Positions 4,728 through 11,002 of a stretch of DNA of 14,413 nucleotides are shown piece after piece. This stretch comes from a virus (lineage: Duplodnaviria > Heunggongvirae > Uroviricota > Caudoviricetes): the IMG/VR virus record IMGVR_UViG_2663762810_000008, one strand, 5' to 3'. Position numbers and translations under genes: made by a program. Each line of letters begins with the position of its first letter. The stretch's first letter is position 1. Below the pieces are notes generated by a model. That model did not search any database, had not been told where the DNA came from, and saw nothing but the letters and a program-made list of their open reading frames with translations.

Positions 4728-5345
4728 TCAGGCGGTGAAAGTACCAATAAAGGTTTCTACTTTGCTGTCTTTGAATTTCTCAACAAGCAGATCACGAAAT
4801 TCGTTAGCCATATCTTCCTGCACCGCTTCCAGCTGAATAATGCGCAGAACCAGTACAGGACGATCGCCAGTGATAATGCTGAGGCGTAATTTAAACGGAC
4901 GTTCTTTCAGACCTTCAAACGGAACGCATTTAATTTCAAATGCCACTGGCATAATGTCTTTGGTCTTCGCTTCGACAGATTCCATCAGGGAGCGTTTGCC
5001 GCTGAAGTCATTATCTTCAAAATCAGCGGTCTGGTTTGCTTCAATCGTGATTTTACGGACTGCCGCAGCTGCTTTTGTTGCCTGAATAGCGTCACCATTA
5101 GCATCAAAGCCCACAAGGTAGTCGGCCCAGTCTTCAATCCATTCTGCCAGTGACTTCTGGGAGTTACGCTCGCCGTTAACAGACAACAGGGCAGAGAACG
5201 GTGCTGTCTTTTTCAGTTTGAGAGTGGCGGTGTTATCTGCGTGACCTGGTTCATCAATAGTACCCAGGTTAAGTACACTGACGGCACGCATATTATCAGC
5301 ATCGATAAAGGTATTGTCCTGGATGAAAAAAGGACCCGGCTTCAT
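4728..5345 (-). CDS. DUF2303/YfdQ-like prophage early protein
   Basis: 205-aa ORF; resemblance to YfdQ-type proteins is from memory and uncertain. The 5' end lies antisense to the Q-homologous sequence, so the true start may be an internal Met (for example at 5291). Confidence 0.55.
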
Positions 5346-5561
5346 GGCGCGCCTGTTTATAAGATTTGTGGGCGTTGCAATGGAAACCGGTTTAGTCGTT
5401 TACCAACGACACTGGCGCGGTGTCATGTCCAGAAGCTGGTACCAGACCTGACTGATTATCAGTGGTACAAAGGATATGCAGATGTCATTGATAAACTGGT
5501 TACAAAGTGCTGGCAGGAAGAAGCATATGCTGAGGTGCAATTAAGAAAAGTGACGAGATAA
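5331..5561 (+). pseudogene. 5'-truncated lambda-type Q antiterminator remnant (C-terminal ~70 aa only)
   Basis: Translation [76 protein letters not shown] matches the remembered C-terminus of phage lambda Q (…ECGRCKGVGYSRMPASAAYRAVTMLIPNLTQPTWSRTVKPLYDALVVQCHKEESIADNILNAVTR). No in-frame start exists after the overlap with the opposite-strand gene. Confidence 0.6.
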
Positions 5562-5691: not shown

Positions 5692-5976
5692 GTGCTTTAA
5701 ATAGGGTAATAGAGATGTTGAATCTCATTCCGGGATTCATGTTTGTTTACTTATTATTTATCGGGTGACTTTGCCTGATGTTTAAAATGTTTTCTTCCAG
5801 TACTATGTCCCTAGATACAATGAGTCTGCATATTACATTATTAGCAGAGCTATTACGGTCAAAGTACAGCATAAGCTTTTAAAGCCAATCAACCAGTCAT
5901 CAAGACAGACGGGGTTATTCATGAAAACTCTCCATGTTTGATTCGATGGGGCCTGAAATTAAAGCTTTAATATAGC

Positions 5977-6189
5977 TCATGAAAGGTAAACATTGGCAGC
6001 TGAAGGGCCACGCAGACCATTTATCCGGCAAAATTCCACGCGTAATCCGGTGGTAATTTCTTCTGCATCGCGGAGATTGAGCGCTGAAACATGAAGCTGG
6101 ACATCGATACGACCATCGGATGGGGTGATAAGACCCTTGCCGCTTTTGCCGTCAAAGGTTTTGACAATTCCTGTCATTTTACGGGACAA
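5977..6189 (-). CDS. cspF: CspA-family cold-shock protein, CspF/CspH subtype
   Basis: Translation (M)[26 protein letters not shown]...[21 protein letters not shown] matches remembered CspF/CspH. The codon at 6189 is TTG, with an AAGGA site 7 nt upstream; the first in-frame ATG is at 6177. Divergent from cspB, as in Qin-type prophages. Confidence 0.8.
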
Positions 6190-6489
6190 AAAAATTCCTT
6201 AATACTGATAACTGGGCGCACTATACACACGTTCCTGAAGAAAGCTATAGTTTTTTGATGGGGTTGAAGATGGCTGGATGTCTAAAATAAACATTGCTTC
6301 ATATGTTCAACTATGCGTTAATGATTGCGTCGGTTTGAAGAACAGACGATATACGAAGTAGTTTACTAAAGCAGTTCTCATTTCAGGTGTTATTCACTTA
6401 TTCCTTCTTTGAGTCTCTCCAATTAAGTACGAAGTCGTTTCTGTTATACAAGCCATTTATGCCGAAAGGCTCAAGTTAAGGAATGTAGA

Positions 6490-6705
6490 ATGTCAAATAA
6501 AATGACTGGTTTAGTAAAATGGTTTAACGCTGATAAAGGTTTTGGCTTTATTTCTCCTGTTGATGGTAGTAAAGATGTGTTTGTGCATTTTTCTGCGATT
6601 CAGAATGATAATTTTCGAACCTTATTTGAAGGTCAAAAGGTTACCTTCTCTGTAGAGAGTGGTGCTAAAGGTCCTGCAGCAGCAAATGTCATAATTACTG
6701 ATTAA
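6490..6705 (+). CDS. cspB: Cold-shock protein CspB
   Basis: 71-aa translation [53 protein letters not shown]... carries the RNP1/RNP2 motifs of the cold-shock domain; AAGGAA ribosome-binding site and a long AT-rich 5' leader. Confidence 0.9.
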
Positions 6706-6986
6706 AATTCATAGTTTGTCTGTATACGATAACGAAGAAGGCTGATGCCTGAGTGGAGATACAGACAGAGTGGTGAATATTGGATCTCTTTAATAAATAG
6801 TAAGGAGGTCCAATACATGAAACAATGGCCAGCATATTTGGCAATAACTTAATCAGGAAAAGTATGCTAACCATTGTGGTGAAGTGCAGGTTTGCTGCAT
6901 GAATAGTTTTACAGCAGAAGCTAACTGCTGGCATAGCAAAACAAAGTGCGTAAGTGGATGACTCCCACAAAAAGTACCACAATATT

Positions 6987-7009
6987 AAACCCGCTCAGGC
7001 GGGTTTTTT
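6987..7009 (+). terminator. Intrinsic terminator downstream of cspB
   Basis: Direct: AAACCCGC-TCAG-GCGGGTTT followed by six T (7004-7009). Confidence 0.6.
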
Positions 7010-7068
7010 ATTATCTGCTTTAAATATGTTATTAAAATATAAAAAATACTTGTTACGAATAAAATCAA

Positions 7069-7239
7069 TCAAGCTACAGCTTTAAGATTTGTCTGGAATA
7101 CTTTGTTGCAATGAGGGCAGATCAAAAGGGCACCTTTTTGTACTCTTGAAAAACTGTGTTCTGACTCTTGGGTGCAGTTTGGGCAGGAACATTTAACGAG
7201 ATAATTACGGCGTGATTTTGAGTCTTTACGTTCTGACAT
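7069..7239 (-). CDS. Small zinc-ribbon protein (two CxxC pairs), 56 aa
   Basis: Translation MSERKDSKSRRNYLVKCSCPNCTQESEHSFSRVQKGALLICPHCNKVFQTNLKAVA has CPNC and CPHC pairs. AGGAAA site 6 nt upstream of the ATG at 7239; the longer track ORF (start 7290) has no ribosome-binding site. Confidence 0.45.
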   Translation of the reverse strand: MSERKDSKSRRNYLVKCSCPNCTQESEHSFSRVQKGALLICPHCNKVFQTNLKAVA

Positions 7240-7457
7240 AGGCTTTTCCTGTATAAATGGCCGTATACAGTACACTAAATATGAAAACATATCTCGTATT
7301 ATTATTTAATATATGATTTTCTTTTAAAATAATTACCCACATTTTTAATGTGTCTGTTTTTTAGCGCCGTTGAGAACAACGTTTGCTATAAAAACTAACC
7401 CATAGACTCCGATCTTTTCAAACATATTGCACCATCTGTGTACATCGGGGTGAGGAT

Positions 7458-7673
7458 ATGAAATCAATGGATAAGTTAACAACAGGTATCGCCTATGGCA
7501 CATCGGCTGGTAATGCTGGTTTCTGGGCATTGCAGTTACTCGATAAAGTAACTCCGTCACAGTGGGCTGCAATCGGTGTGCTGGGTAGTCTGGTTTTTGG
7601 CCTGCTGACGTATCTGACAAACCTTTATTTCAAGATTAAAGAAGACAGGCGTAAGGTTGCGAGAAGAGAGTAA
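7458..7673 (+). CDS. essQ: Phage 21 S-type pinholin (class II holin) with dual-start motif
   Basis: 71-aa translation [71 protein letters not shown] matches the remembered S21 pinholin; two hydrophobic segments; Met1-Lys-Ser-Met4 gives antiholin/holin dual starts; GAGGAT ribosome-binding site. Confidence 0.9.
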
Positions 7674-7677
7674 TCCA

Positions 7678-8229
7678 ATGACACAAGACTATGAACTGGT
7701 TGTGAAAGGAGTCCGCAATTTTGAGAATAAAGTGGCGGTAACTGTAGCCTTACGGGACAAAAAACGCTTTGACGGTGAAATTTTTGACCTGGACATCTCG
7801 CTGGACCGTGTTGAAGGTGCCGCGCTGGAGTTTTATGAGGCAGCAGCCAGAATGAGAATCAGACAGGTATTCCTGGATGTTGCTGCCGGGTTATGTGTAG
7901 GGGATGAGCAGTCGCCGGAAAAGCGCCCCATAATTTTAGAGGCGCAGAATGTGTGGATAACCTACAAAGGAAAGCTACCGGGAAGAATTACTGGTTCTCT
8001 GAAGACGCCACCGACGGCATTGCGGTCAGAAAAAGATGATATTGAATCGCCCATTGAAAAACTGGAGGGCAGCGTCGCTGATCTGAATAAAAAATTGTCG
8101 GTGCTGATCCCTTCTGAAGATGAAAAAAAACGCCGCGATGAGCAGTTTGCGGCGTTTTACGATTATTGCATTGAAGTTACTCGCAGGAATTTTGTGAAGA
8201 TTTTTGAGGAGGGTAAATCTCTTCAGTAA
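7678..8229 (+). CDS. Hypothetical protein between holin and endolysin (possibly YdfR/DUF1327-like, C-terminally extended)
   Basis: ATG at 7678, 4 nt after the holin stop (MTQDYELVVKGVRNFENKV...). The track start at 7657 overlaps the holin and is less likely. Resemblance to the small ydfR-type ORF of Qin-like lysis cassettes is from memory and not verified. Confidence 0.55.
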   Translation: MTQDYELVVKGVRNFENKVAVTVALRDKKRFDGEIFDLDISLDRVEGAALEFYEAAARMRIRQVFLDVAAGLCVGDEQSPEKRPIILEAQNVWITYKGKLPGRITGSLKTPPTALRSEKDDIESPIEKLEGSVADLNKKLSVLIPSEDEKKRRDEQFAAFYDYCIEVTRRNFVKIFEEGKSLQ

Positions 8230-8437
8230 GCTTAATGGCGGACGCTGCAATTAATTCAGGAAGGTCCGCAAGGTCATCTGTCAGTGGATATGATGAAAAA
8301 TCGGCGGCAGTTCTGTTAAGAAGCGCTTTAACTAATTCCTTTTCCTTCTCCGGCAACAAGTTGATTAGAGCTACGACTGCTTGCCTGAGTGCGATTAAAT
8401 CAGCAAAAGTTTGTTTTGGTAGATTTGTGTAATCCAT
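8177..8437 (-). CDS. Hypothetical protein, 86 aa, convergent with and overlapping the 3' end of the preceding ORF
   Basis: ORF MDYTNLPKQTFADLIALRQAVVALINLLPEKEKELVKALL... with a protein-like helical composition; fills an otherwise ~320-bp gap ahead of the endolysin. Start ATG at 8437 (track lists the GTG at 8443). No family recognised. Confidence 0.3.
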   Translation of the reverse strand: MDYTNLPKQTFADLIALRQAVVALINLLPEKEKELVKALLNRTAADFSSYPLTDDLADLPELIAASAIKLTEEIYPPQKSSQNSCE

Positions 8438-8550
8438 AGTCACCTCTGTGTTTATCAGATTGACATCCTCCTCCCGCCAGTGCCCATCACTGGTGAGGTA
8501 AGATTTAACATATCCGGGGATTTGAAGCCGATAAATCCTGATAAATATCC

Positions 8551-9578
<1,028 letters not shown>

Positions 9579-9941
9579 ATTAATATTAAATCGGATTATT
9601 TTTAGCGCTGAATGTGAAATTTAAATAAAAAGGACTCTTCCATGAGTCAAAATCCTTGAAATCTTAAGGGTAAGATAAAAGGTCATTAGACAGAATGACA
9701 CGTTTTATTAATAAATAAAGCTATTGTTTCATTCGTGTGTTTTTCTTTACAAAAGTAATCCTTGCTATGGTTGGTTAATCATGCGTTAATGGTGTTCTGG
9801 TTTGTTACAAAATTATCTGAAGCAGTCATTGTTATAATTTTATTATTTGTACCTCTTGAGATCTCCTTGTTGGTTTTTCTCTCTGATATTTTTTTTCGGA
9901 CCATTCTGCCCAAGGGCTAACTTCTTCAAAAGGTAATAATG

Positions 9942-10154
9942 ATGTCTAACAAAATGACTGGTTTAGTGAAATGGTTTAACCCTGAAAAAGGTTTTGGTTT
10001 CATCACGCCGAAAGATGGTAGCAAAGATGTGTTTGTCCATTTCTCAGTTATTCAGAGCAACGATTTCAAAACGTTAACTGAGAATCAGGAAGTCGAATTT
10101 GGTATTGAGAACGGACCTAAAGGCCCCGCGGCTGTTCATGTAGTGGCACTTTGA
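9942..10154 (+). CDS. cspI: Cold-shock protein CspI
   Basis: Translation [70 protein letters not shown] matches remembered CspI. Tandem ATGs at 9939 and 9942; long AT-rich 5' leader. Confidence 0.9.
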
Positions 10155-10358
10155 GGTAGAAAATATTACAAACCATATTCACTTTAGATGCCCGTGTTGC
10201 CATGGTTCTCAGTATAGAACATCATCTTTTGATGTTTCTGACAGGAATCCTTTCGGGGCAAAATGTATCTTTTGTAAATCAATGATGATTACATTTGATA
10301 ATATTTCACAATACTTAAATGTTAGCCGTCTGTCGTTAGATTTAAGAAAGTGAAAATG

Positions 10359-10381
10359 AAGGCTCCTTCGGGAGCTTTTTT
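10359..10381 (+). terminator. Intrinsic terminator downstream of cspI
   Basis: Direct: AAGGCTCC-TTCG-GGAGCTT stem with a UUCG tetraloop, followed by six T (10376-10381). Confidence 0.6.
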
Positions 10382-10425
10382 GCTTAGTGTCTAGTCGATG
10401 GATACTCACATATTACGGTAACATT

Positions 10426-10656
10426 ATGAAAAAAATAATAGTTTTTTTTAACTCTGAACCAGCAATGGTAGTGCCAGTGATGACCGGAGTTAACACCATC
10501 ATGCGTGAATATCCAAATGGCGAAACAACACACCTCACTGTAATGGCTGCAGGGTTTCCATCTCTGACCGGAGATCATAAAGTCATTTATGTAGCAGCGG
10601 ATCGACATGTAACTTCAGAAGAAATTCTGGAAGCAGCAATGAGACTCTTGAATTGA
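10426..10656 (+). CDS. Hypothetical small protein, 76 aa
   Basis: ORF MKKIIVFFNSEPAMVVPVMTGVNTIMREYPNGE... in the cspI-gnsB interval. The first ATG in frame is 10426 (track start 10387 is a GTG abutting the terminator T-run). No clear ribosome-binding site. Confidence 0.4.
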   Translation: MKKIIVFFNSEPAMVVPVMTGVNTIMREYPNGETTHLTVMAAGFPSLTGDHKVIYVAADRHVTSEEILEAAMRLLN

Positions 10657-10825: not shown

Positions 10826-11002
10826 ATGATGAACATTGAAGAGTTAAAAACAAAAACAGAAGCAGATATTTCTGAATATATAACAAAAAAAATCATTGAG
10901 CTTAAGAAAAAGACCGGGAAAGAAGTTACCAGTATCCAGTTTACTGCACGGGAAAAAATGACTGGTCTTGAAAGCTATGATATCAAGATTGATTTAATCT
11001 AG
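10826..11002 (+). CDS. gnsB: GnsA/GnsB-family small protein
   Basis: 58-aa translation MMNIEELKTKTEADISEYITKKIIELKKKTGKEVTSIQFTAREKMTGLESYDIKIDLI matches the remembered GnsA/GnsB pattern. AAAAGAGGA ribosome-binding site; the longer track ORF is an upstream extension. Confidence 0.75.
   Translation: MMNIEELKTKTEADISEYITKKIIELKKKTGKEVTSIQFTAREKMTGLESYDIKIDLI

What the first reader, a model, noticed from the sequence alone, without database searches (positions are those of the whole stretch)
7069..7239. Small zinc-ribbon protein gene on the opposite strand just upstream of the holin
A 56-aa ORF with two CxxC pairs and a good ribosome-binding site is transcribed divergently from the lysis cassette, between cspB and the holin. 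Small zinc-ribbon proteins in this position could be nucleic-acid-binding regulators; I do not confidently recognise the family.
Basis: seen in the sequence. Interest (0 to 1): 0.4.

Follow-up and report, generated by a model that had tools for sequence, protein, structure and literature searches.

The report
Known small zinc-ribbon gene ynfU
The 56-codon gene is real but already known: it is ynfU, a translated small zinc-ribbon protein of unknown function, and its consistent neighbour across enterobacteria is a cold-shock gene, not the phage lysis genes.

Summary
The ORF at 7069-7239 (minus strand) is exactly as described: 56 aa, two CPxC knuckles, and a conserved RBS. It is ynfU (E. coli K-12 b4776, 98% identical; Pfam PF23499 at 2.5e-31; NCBIfam NF038384). 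Published Ribo-RET data, tagged western blots and a reporter-transposon screen show that it is translated. No function has been published.

New here:
- The family is confined to Enterobacterales and is under strong purifying selection (dN/dS about 0.09).
- It carries its own conserved RBS and about 75 bp of conserved upstream sequence.
- In 57 of 80 species-representative loci, a csp gene lies within 1 kb. It is usually convergent. In 13 of 14 loci checked (13 of 13 with a convergent cspB-like gene) it carries the cspA thermoregulator.
- Only 11 of 80 loci have Qin-like lysis genes, so the position next to the holin is incidental.
- The model (core pLDDT 83-89) is a generic C4 zinc ribbon with a basic N-terminal arm. 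No fold match is significant.

Best reading: ynfU is an autonomously expressed accessory gene of a cold-shock gene cluster carried by Qin-like prophages. It probably binds RNA, the ribosome or a partner protein. That mechanism is inferred, not shown. Novelty: already known. Interest is low to moderate.

The parts
7069..7239 (-). ynfU coding sequence (56 codons plus stop). It encodes a C4 zinc-ribbon protein with a basic N-terminal arm (residues 1-16), knuckles C19-P-x-C22 and C41-P-x-C44, and an invariant S26-E-H-S-F-x-R-x-Q-K-G36 segment.
7246..7251 (-). Shine-Dalgarno sequence CAGGAA, 6 nt upstream of the ATG.
   Evidence: Sequence. CAGGA(A/G) is conserved at this position in almost all of 80 loci.
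7267..7272 (-). Candidate -10 hexamer TACTGT (family consensus TAtgGT; the GTA..GT columns are invariant). It would place the transcription start near 7260 and give a leader of about 20 nt. This is inferred, not mapped.
   Evidence: Alignments. The simple consensus scan picked another weak site at 7328-7301 instead.
7240..7315 (-). Upstream block of about 75 bp that travels with ynfU across genera (promoter region plus short leader). Sequence further upstream is not conserved. No conserved RNA structure was found.
   Evidence: RNAalifold predicted 0 pairs. No Rfam hit here.
6987..7006 (.). G+C-rich hairpin AAACCCGC-TCAG-GCGGGTTT between the convergent cspB and ynfU genes. It has a good T-tract on the + strand (cspB side) and a poorer one on the minus strand (ynfU side), so it is probably a shared, bidirectional terminator.
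6329..6768 (+). cspB mRNA (CDS 6490-6705) with its cspA-type thermoregulator. It is convergent with ynfU and is the conserved neighbour of the family.
   Evidence: RF01766, 156.5 bits. (57/80 loci). (13 of 13 loci with a convergent cspB-like gene carry RF01766).
5977..6189 (-). cspF, divergent from cspB. It is the third member of the recurrent ynfU / cspB-like / cspF-like arrangement.
7458..7673 (+). essQ holin, the divergent neighbour. It is listed for orientation only and is not a conserved partner of ynfU.
   Evidence: lysis genes in 11/80 loci.

Best explanation
The ORF is ynfU, the Qin-prophage small protein gene of E. coli (98% identical to K-12 b4776).

Shown:
- It encodes a conserved, translated 56-aa protein.
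- The predicted fold is a single zinc ribbon. The four Cys of the two CPxC knuckles (C19, C22, C41, C44) are the near-invariant residues of the wider family.
- A lysine/arginine-rich N-terminal arm precedes the ribbon (net charge about +6 by residue count).
- The segment between the knuckles, SEHSF(S/T)RVQKG, is essentially invariant in the core family.
- It is a self-contained unit with its own RBS and about 75 bp of conserved upstream DNA.
- It is oriented against the phage late operon.
- In this window the Q antiterminator gene is truncated.
- In K-12, a homologous cryptic prophage produces readily detectable YnfU.
- Across Enterobacteriaceae its recurrent neighbour is a cold-inducible-type csp gene, not lysis genes.

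Inferred:
- ynfU belongs to a cold-shock gene cluster (cspF-cspB-ynfU, with cspI/ynfQ/ynfN/gnsB further on). Qin-like lambdoid prophages carry this cluster as cargo between Q and the lysis cassette.
- The zinc is structural.
- The protein acts by binding, through the basic arm and the invariant inter-knuckle surface, to RNA, the ribosome or a protein partner. The likely setting is the same low-temperature or lag-phase RNA-handling physiology as the Csp proteins.

Likelihoods: identity as ynfU about 0.98. An autonomous cargo gene rather than a lysis regulator, about 0.8. A functional tie to cold-shock/RNA physiology, about 0.35.
For: - Identity: 100% DNA match annotated 'ynfU: putative zinc-binding protein YnfU' in CFT073, S88 and APEC O1; the region is present in 1653 of 5426 complete E. 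coli genomes. Same gene order as K-12 Qin. 55/56 residues identical to K-12 YnfU. Pfam and NCBIfam matches are well above their cut-offs.
- Translation: found by ribosome profiling with stalled initiation complexes. The tagged protein was the most abundant of the newly found small proteins (bioRxiv 10.1101/511675). It was recovered independently by PIRT-Seq (PMC12350097).
- Selection: dN/dS about 0.09, ORF intact in 75/75 loci. Invariant residues are listed.
- Autonomy: conserved RBS, start and upstream block. Chromosomal, non-prophage contexts in Klebsiella, Lelliottia, Kosakonia and Enterobacter. Q is truncated in the window: only residues 167-250 remain.
- csp linkage: 57/80 loci have a csp within 1 kb, median gap 231 bp, and 39 are convergent. 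This holds in 47 of the 69 loci without lysis genes. It appears in 20 of 28 distinct outer-flank contexts. The neighbouring csp carries the cspA thermoregulator in 13/13 convergent loci tested and in the window. Phage PHB10 has ynfU beside cspB/cspF and away from lysis genes. Lelliottia also has a YnaE-family gene alongside.
- Fold: AlphaFold2 with 48 sequences gives mean pLDDT 76.7, 83-89 in the core, with strands 14-18, 25-29, 38-40 and 47-49 and helix 30-35. The nearest solved structures are small zinc ribbons, several of them ribosome-bound archaeal proteins, though none is significant.
Against: - No experiment links YnfU to cold, RNA or ribosomes. I found no expression data for ynfU at low temperature.
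- ynfU lacks the long cspA-type 5' UTR (no Rfam hit), and no conserved leader structure was found.
- 23 of 80 core loci and some distant members (Yersinia, one Citrobacter group) have no nearby csp.
- Gene linkage could reflect joint transfer of a cargo block rather than joint function.
- Zinc binding itself is unproven.
Confidence: 0.55

Rival explanations
1. YnfU is a small protein-binding regulator or co-chaperone. Its zinc ribbon would dock on a larger host protein. Known precedents for this mode of action are YacG on gyrase and the DNL-type zinc finger Tim15/Hep1 on Hsp70. It would not bind nucleic acid at all.
For: Weaver et al. expect most small proteins to act by binding larger proteins. 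The best sequence hit in the PDB is Tim15 (E 0.028), with an alignment that shares C-x2-C, S-x-H, KG and CP-x-C. Tim15 is also rank 2 in Foldseek (probability 0.95). Pfam zf-DNL gives a weak hit (E 0.076). An invariant surface segment suits a specific protein partner.
Confidence: 0.25
2. YnfU regulates the adjacent phage lysis cassette or late transcription.
For: It lies divergent to and 218 bp from the holin in the window, in K-12 Qin, and in Klebsiella phage ST13-OXA48phi12.4, which has 57% identity and no annotated csp.
Against: Only 11 of 80 species-level loci have Qin-like lysis genes nearby. Most homologues are in non-prophage chromosomal sites. Phage PHB10 carries it away from the lysis genes. 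It is expressed from a cryptic prophage in uninduced cells.
Confidence: 0.05
3. YnfU is a prophage 'moron' that protects the lysogen, by superinfection exclusion or anti-phage defence, or that otherwise alters host physiology unrelated to cold.
For: It sits in the classic cargo position between Q and the lysis genes, is antisense to late transcription, and is expressed in the lysogen. It is present in several temperate phages.
Against: There is no match to any PADLOC defence model. PHROG matches are only weak hits to families of unknown function. Most family members are chromosomal and not in prophages.
Confidence: 0.08
4. YnfU is a metal-handling protein (zinc or iron buffering, delivery or sensing), and the metal is not merely a structural ligand.
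For: Its database name is 'putative zinc-binding protein'. There is an extra conserved Cys17 and an invariant His28 in the core family. One preprint groups ynfU with suf genes as up-regulated in lag phase and under hypomagnetic conditions.
Against: Cys17 and His28 are not conserved in the wider family; only the four knuckle cysteines are. One metal site in a 56-aa protein is typical of a structural zinc ribbon. No metal-homeostasis genes recur as neighbours. The preprint's 'iron-metabolism' label comes with no evidence.
Confidence: 0.07

Closest known systems
YnfU of E. coli K-12 (b4776, Qin prophage); Pfam PF23499; NCBIfam NF038384
   Same: 55 of 56 residues are identical. The flanking genes are the same (cspF, cspB, ynfU, essQ, ydfR, rrrQ, rzpQ/rzoQ, cspI, ynfQ, ynfR, ynfN, gnsB). 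The family HMM matches are full-length.
   Different: One substitution (D6 here, N6 in K-12). The surrounding prophage is degraded differently: Q is truncated and the ydfR region is rearranged.
Generic stand-alone zinc ribbons: PhnA/YjdM N-terminal ribbon (PA0128, 2akl), LysW, ZitP
   Different: All scores are below family cut-offs. The basic N-terminal arm and the invariant SEHSFSRVQKG segment are specific to YnfU.
Small ribosome-bound archaeal zinc-finger proteins (HVO_2753-like protein on archaeal 30S subunits; zinc-finger protein on the Methanosarcina acetivorans 70S, 9o17_AZ)
   Same: Similar size (50-62 aa). These are the top Foldseek neighbours: E 0.09-0.5, probability 0.66-0.97, 21-33% identity over 35-39 aligned columns.
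DNL-type zinc finger (Tim15/Zim17/Hep1, Hsp70 escort protein)
   Same: Local pattern C-x2-C ... S-x-H ... KG ... CP-x-C. Foldseek rank 2.
   Different: It is below the Pfam cut-off (13.4 vs 27 bits), has no DNL motif, and the hit is not shared by most family members. It is a eukaryotic organellar family.

Membership tests
YnfU family (Pfam PF23499 / NCBIfam NF038384) | Full-length match to the family HMM above the curated cut-off | tested here: met
   PF23499: 107.7 bits (cut-off 27), profile positions 1-49 of 49. NF038384: 79.8 bits (cut-off 36), positions 1-51 of 52.
YnfU family (Pfam PF23499 / NCBIfam NF038384) | Stand-alone protein of about 50-60 aa with two CPxC zinc knuckles | tested here: met
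   56 aa, with CPNC at 19-22 and CPHC at 41-44. C19, P20, C22, C41, P42 and C44 are the invariant or near-invariant columns of 48 members.
YnfU family (Pfam PF23499 / NCBIfam NF038384) | Orthology with E. coli K-12 ynfU (sequence and synteny) | tested here: met
   98.2% identity to the K-12 protein. Same neighbours as in K-12 Qin.
YnfU family (Pfam PF23499 / NCBIfam NF038384) | Actual zinc binding | not testable with these tools
   Zinc binding is inferred only from the motif and from the predicted zinc-ribbon fold.
Lambdoid lysis cassette / late-gene regulators | Consistent co-occurrence with holin/endolysin genes | tested here: not met
   Qin-like lysis genes are present in 11 of 80 loci. 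Non-prophage contexts are seen. Holins unrelated to EssQ would have been missed by the tblastn.
CspA-type cold-shock genes | Long 5' UTR thermoregulator (Rfam RF01766) | tested here: not met
   RF01766 is found at cspB and cspI but not at ynfU. The predicted leader is only about 20 nt and no conserved structure was found.
Cold-shock stimulon (any mechanism) | Induction after a temperature downshift | not tested
   No expression data are available to these tools. Only genomic linkage to cold-inducible-type csp genes was shown.
DNL zinc finger (PF05180) | HMM match above cut-off and the D-N-L motif after the second knuckle | tested here: not met
   13.4 bits against a cut-off of 27. The motif is absent. 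The family is not among those hit by most members.
PhnA/YjdM zinc ribbon (PF08274) | HMM match above cut-off | tested here: not met
   22.4 bits against a cut-off of 30.8. 33 of 48 members give weak hits, which indicates a shared fold class only.
Known anti-phage defence systems (PADLOC) | Match to any defence-protein model | tested here: not met
   0 families at E <= 1.

The most novel reading that the evidence does not exclude
YnfU is a previously unrecognised component of the enterobacterial cold-shock/lag-phase RNA-handling system. It would be a zinc-ribbon protein with a basic arm that binds RNA or the ribosome and works alongside CspB/CspF-type chaperones. This would explain why ynfU has stayed next to a thermoregulated csp gene in about 20 different genomic settings, and why Qin-like phages carry the pair together.
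Probability: 0.3. Interest if true: 0.5.

Novelty: already known. Interest (0 to 1): 0.22.

Why it matters
As a finding it adds little. The gene, its zinc-knuckle motif and its translation were published in 2019, and it is now annotated routinely. Its function is still unknown, and it was the most abundant of the small proteins found in that screen. The comparative result here is that the family is restricted to Enterobacterales, is under strong constraint, and is linked to thermoregulated csp genes rather than to lysis genes. That turns 'function unknown' into a cheap, specific experiment on cold-shift expression and phenotype and on RNA/ribosome association. It also argues against looking for a role in phage lysis.

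Tried and rejected
1. The 73-aa reading from the upstream ATG at 7290. Rejected because the conserved RBS and start, and the public annotation, are those of the 56-aa form. The upstream ATG probably lies in the promoter region.
2. A cspA-like or other structured leader upstream of ynfU. Rfam found nothing and RNAalifold found no pairs in 27 genera. A hairpin visible in the E. coli sequence (CTGTATA...TATACAG over the RBS) is not conserved.
3. Remote homology to DNL/Tim15, PhnA/YjdM, the terminase gpA zinc finger or archaeal ribosome zinc fingers. All are sub-threshold and inconsistent across members.
4. The first structure model, built from 15 sequences, was too poor to use (pLDDT 56.8). It was replaced by the 48-sequence model.
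5. PHROGs and PADLOC gave nothing informative.
6. A search for another shared neighbour in the 23 loci without csp found none.
7. A mini-ORF with a perfect Shine-Dalgarno sequence between cspB and ynfU was checked as a possible conserved partner. It occurs only in Escherichia.
8. Literature. No functional study of YnfU is in the held library. A silver-nanoparticle evolution paper reports only a low-frequency intergenic ynfU/cspB polymorphism. A genomic SELEX paper lists RNA polymerase holoenzyme peaks in the essQ-cspB spacer, but its resolution and coordinates are too coarse to assign them to ynfU.
9. The exhaustive representative search found only 45 relatives at E <= 1e-3 among 1.84 billion proteins. 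No multidomain relatives gave a functional clue.

Full report
**Observation**

The minus strand of window 7069-7239 encodes a 56-residue protein, MSERKDSKSRRNYLVKCSCPNCTQESEHSFSRVQKGALLICPHCNKVFQTNLKAVA. It has CPNC at residues 19-22 and CPHC at residues 41-44. A CAGGAA Shine-Dalgarno sequence lies 6 nt before the ATG. The gene lies between cspB (6490-6705, +) and the holin essQ (7458-7673, +), and is divergent from essQ. The description in the finding is accurate.

**Identity**

A 511-bp stretch around the ORF is 100% identical to E. coli CFT073, S88, APEC O1 and others. RefSeq annotates it there as 'ynfU: putative zinc-binding protein YnfU'. The region is present in 1653 of 5426 complete E. 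coli genomes.

The gene order in CFT073 and in K-12 Qin is the same as in the window: cspF, cspB, ynfU, essQ, ydfR, rrrQ, rzpQ/rzoQ, cspI, ynfQ, ynfR, ynfN, gnsB. The protein is 55/56 identical to K-12 YnfU, b4776. It matches Pfam PF23499 'YnfU' (2.5e-31, 107.7 bits against a cut-off of 27) and NCBIfam NF038384 (79.8 bits against a cut-off of 36) over their full lengths.

**What is published**

YnfU was discovered by ribosome profiling with stalled initiation complexes. The chromosomally tagged protein was the most abundant of the newly found small proteins. The authors noted the pair of CPXC zinc knuckles and a moderate modelling match to the PhnA-like protein PA0128 (bioRxiv 10.1101/511675).

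A reporter-transposon screen, PIRT-Seq, recovered it independently (PMC12350097). Later papers only repeat 'possible metal binding' or list it among prophage genes. I found no functional study in the held library.

It fails on both counts, so the gene is real. It is also already known.

**Conservation**

A word-indexed search found 49 relatives. An exhaustive HMMER scan of 1.84 billion representatives found only 45 at E <= 1e-3. A profile that included the distant relatives reached 84, all in Enterobacterales: Escherichia, Citrobacter, Klebsiella, Raoultella, Enterobacter, Kosakonia, Kluyvera, Cronobacter, Hafnia, Yersinia, Serratia, Erwinia and Providencia. All carry PF23499 except one 30-residue fragment.

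In the core family the invariant residues are K5, L14, C17, P20, C22, S26-E-H-S-F30, R32, Q34-K-G36, L39, C41, P42, C44 and F48. In the wider family only the four knuckle cysteines and the two prolines stay invariant or nearly so. C19, C22, C41 and C44 are therefore the likely metal ligands, and C17 and H28 are not required.

Across 75 species-representative loci the ORF is always intact. Median dN/dS against the E. coli copy is about 0.09 where dS is still measurable, and synonymous sites are otherwise saturated. The ATG and a CAGGA(A/G) RBS are conserved in almost every locus. This supports the 56-aa start over the 73-aa ORF listed.

**Regulatory anatomy**

About 75 bp upstream of the ATG is alignable across genera, and sequence further upstream is not. 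The block contains an invariant GTA..GT, read as TA(t/c)(g/t)GT. I read this as a -10 hexamer, at window 7272-7267 on the minus strand. It would give a leader of about 20 nt. This start site is inferred, not mapped. The simple consensus scan preferred a different weak site.

There is no conserved leader structure and no Rfam match at ynfU. cspB (6329-6768) and cspI (9795-10200) both carry the cspA thermoregulator.

A G+C-rich hairpin at 6987-7006 lies between the convergent cspB and ynfU genes and probably terminates both.

ynfU is antisense to the phage late operon. In this window the Q antiterminator gene is reduced to its last 84 codons. Expression therefore cannot depend on late transcription. 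This agrees with its detection in uninduced K-12.

**Context**

This is the main new result. A scan of one genome per species returned 80 loci. tblastn with the window's own proteins gave the following:
- A csp gene lies within 1 kb of ynfU in 57 of 80 loci, with a median gap of 231 bp.
- In 39 of these loci a cspB-like gene is convergent with ynfU, often followed by a divergent cspF-like gene, as in the window.
- Only 11 loci have Qin-like lysis genes.
- 47 of the 69 loci without lysis genes still have the csp neighbour.

Gene calls for individual loci confirm ordinary chromosomal settings. In Lelliottia the order is liv transporter genes, a YnaE-family gene, ynfU, a CSD gene, pgsA and uvrC. 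Klebsiella and Kosakonia are similar.

Clustering the outer flanks gives 28 distinct neighbourhoods, and 20 of them contain csp-linked loci. The pairing is therefore not a single inherited arrangement. Background expectation is low, by my own estimate: about nine csp genes per 4.6-Mb genome gives under 1% chance of one falling within 1 kb.

In 13 of 13 convergent loci tested, from 13 species, the neighbouring csp carries the cspA thermoregulator.

The exceptions matter. 23 core loci have no csp and share no other neighbour. Among distant members:
- Hafnia has ynfU, then DUF2058, then a CSD gene.
- Cronobacter has a CSD gene 1.9 kb away.
- Yersinia and one Citrobacter group have none.

Among phages, PHB10 carries ynfU beside cspB/cspF and far from the lysis genes. 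A Klebsiella phage has it divergent from the holin with no annotated csp.

**Structure**

A first model from 15 sequences was unusable (pLDDT 56.8). With 48 sequences the mean pLDDT rose to 76.7, and to 83-89 for residues 11-50. The model has strands 14-18, 25-29, 38-40 and 47-49 and a short helix at 30-35. The helix covers the invariant segment.

Foldseek against the PDB gave no match at E <= 0.001. The best hits are:
- a small zinc-finger protein on the Methanosarcina 70S ribosome (E 0.09, probability 0.97, 33% identity);
- Tim15 (E 0.12);
- HVO_2753-like proteins on archaeal 30S subunits, and ZitP.

Scanning all 48 members against Pfam shows only generic zinc-ribbon families as secondary hits. 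zf-DNL is not among the consistent ones. The fold is a generic C4 zinc ribbon, and no specific family membership beyond YnfU is supported.

**Mechanism**

Shown: a constrained, translated, autonomously organised small zinc-ribbon protein gene whose recurrent genomic partner is a thermoregulated csp gene.

Inferred:
- ynfU is cargo of a cold-shock gene cluster carried by Qin-like prophages, and its place next to the holin is incidental.
- The zinc is structural.
- The lysine/arginine-rich N-terminal arm (net charge about +6 by count) and the invariant inter-knuckle helix form a binding surface for RNA, the ribosome or a protein partner. The setting would be low-temperature or lag-phase RNA physiology.

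I put the cold-shock/RNA link at about 0.35, a protein-binding regulator at about 0.25, and lysis regulation at about 0.05. The defence-moron and metal-handling readings each get under 0.1. PADLOC and PHROGs gave nothing informative. One preprint reports ynfU up-regulated in lag phase and calls it an iron gene, without giving evidence for that label.

**Verdict**

The gene and its family are already known, so novelty is 'already known' and interest is low to moderate. The useful residue is the csp linkage, which gives a specific and cheap experimental test for a protein whose function is still open.

Noticed in passing
window 5307-5558 (+): Only the C-terminal third (residues 167-250) of the Q antiterminator YdfT/QuuQ is present, next to a YfdQ-like gene (4728-5345, minus strand). 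The prophage in this window has lost the front of Q, so its late/lysis operon is probably not activatable.
   Followed up: partly
window 6818-6853 (+): An 11-codon mini-ORF (MKQWPAYLAIT) lies in the cspB-ynfU spacer behind a near-perfect Shine-Dalgarno sequence (TAAGGAGGT, 7 nt spacing). It is present in Escherichia loci, including a K-12-like one, but not in other genera. It is not annotated in CFT073 or K-12.
   Followed up: partly
window 6706-7006 (+): The strong terminator hairpin (6987-7006) lies about 280 nt beyond the cspB stop codon. A weaker terminator-like hairpin is at 6884-6900. cspB therefore seems to have a long 3' region that faces the 3' end of ynfU. The spacer between the convergent genes varies from 77 to 410 bp across genera.
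   Followed up: partly
window 6329-6768 and 9795-10200 (+): Two full-length cspA thermoregulator matches (156.5 and 116.8 bits) cover cspB and cspI.
   Followed up: yes
window 7657-8229 (+) and 8177-8443 (-): The gene after the holin matches YdfR only over its first 73 residues, then continues as a 190-aa ORF. An 88-aa ORF on the opposite strand overlaps its end. CFT073 annotates this as an incomplete YdfR family protein plus a hypothetical protein. The region between holin and endolysin is rearranged.
   Followed up: no
window 5836-5922 (-), 10165-10350, 10356-10418, 10501-10653, 10829-10999 (+): Other K-12 Qin small-protein genes are present: ynfS, ynfQ, ynfR, ynfN and gnsB (90-95% identity). 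The whole cold-shock/small-protein cargo set is retained although the prophage is degraded.
   Followed up: partly
loci L016, L038, L052, L054: ynfU loci typical of Enterobacteriaceae sit in assemblies labelled Veillonella parvula (MAG), Vagococcus sp., Kocuria sabuli and a Bacillota MAG. In L016 the ynfU protein is 100% identical to E. coli and the flanking genes are 85-97% identical. These are most likely contaminating contigs or binning errors.
   Followed up: no
K-12 essQ-cspB spacer (equivalent to window about 6706-7457): A 2017 genomic SELEX study lists RNA polymerase holoenzyme binding peaks (heat-shock and extracytoplasmic sigma factors) in the essQ-cspB spacer, before ynfU was annotated (PMC5493296). 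The resolution is too coarse to assign them to ynfU.
   Followed up: no
locus L004 (phage HannyBb), 4585-7350: Between Q and ynfU this phage has a run of about 20 tiny annotated 'hypothetical proteins' (30-55 aa each) instead of cspB/cspF. It may be a tRNA array or over-annotation. I did not check.
   Followed up: no
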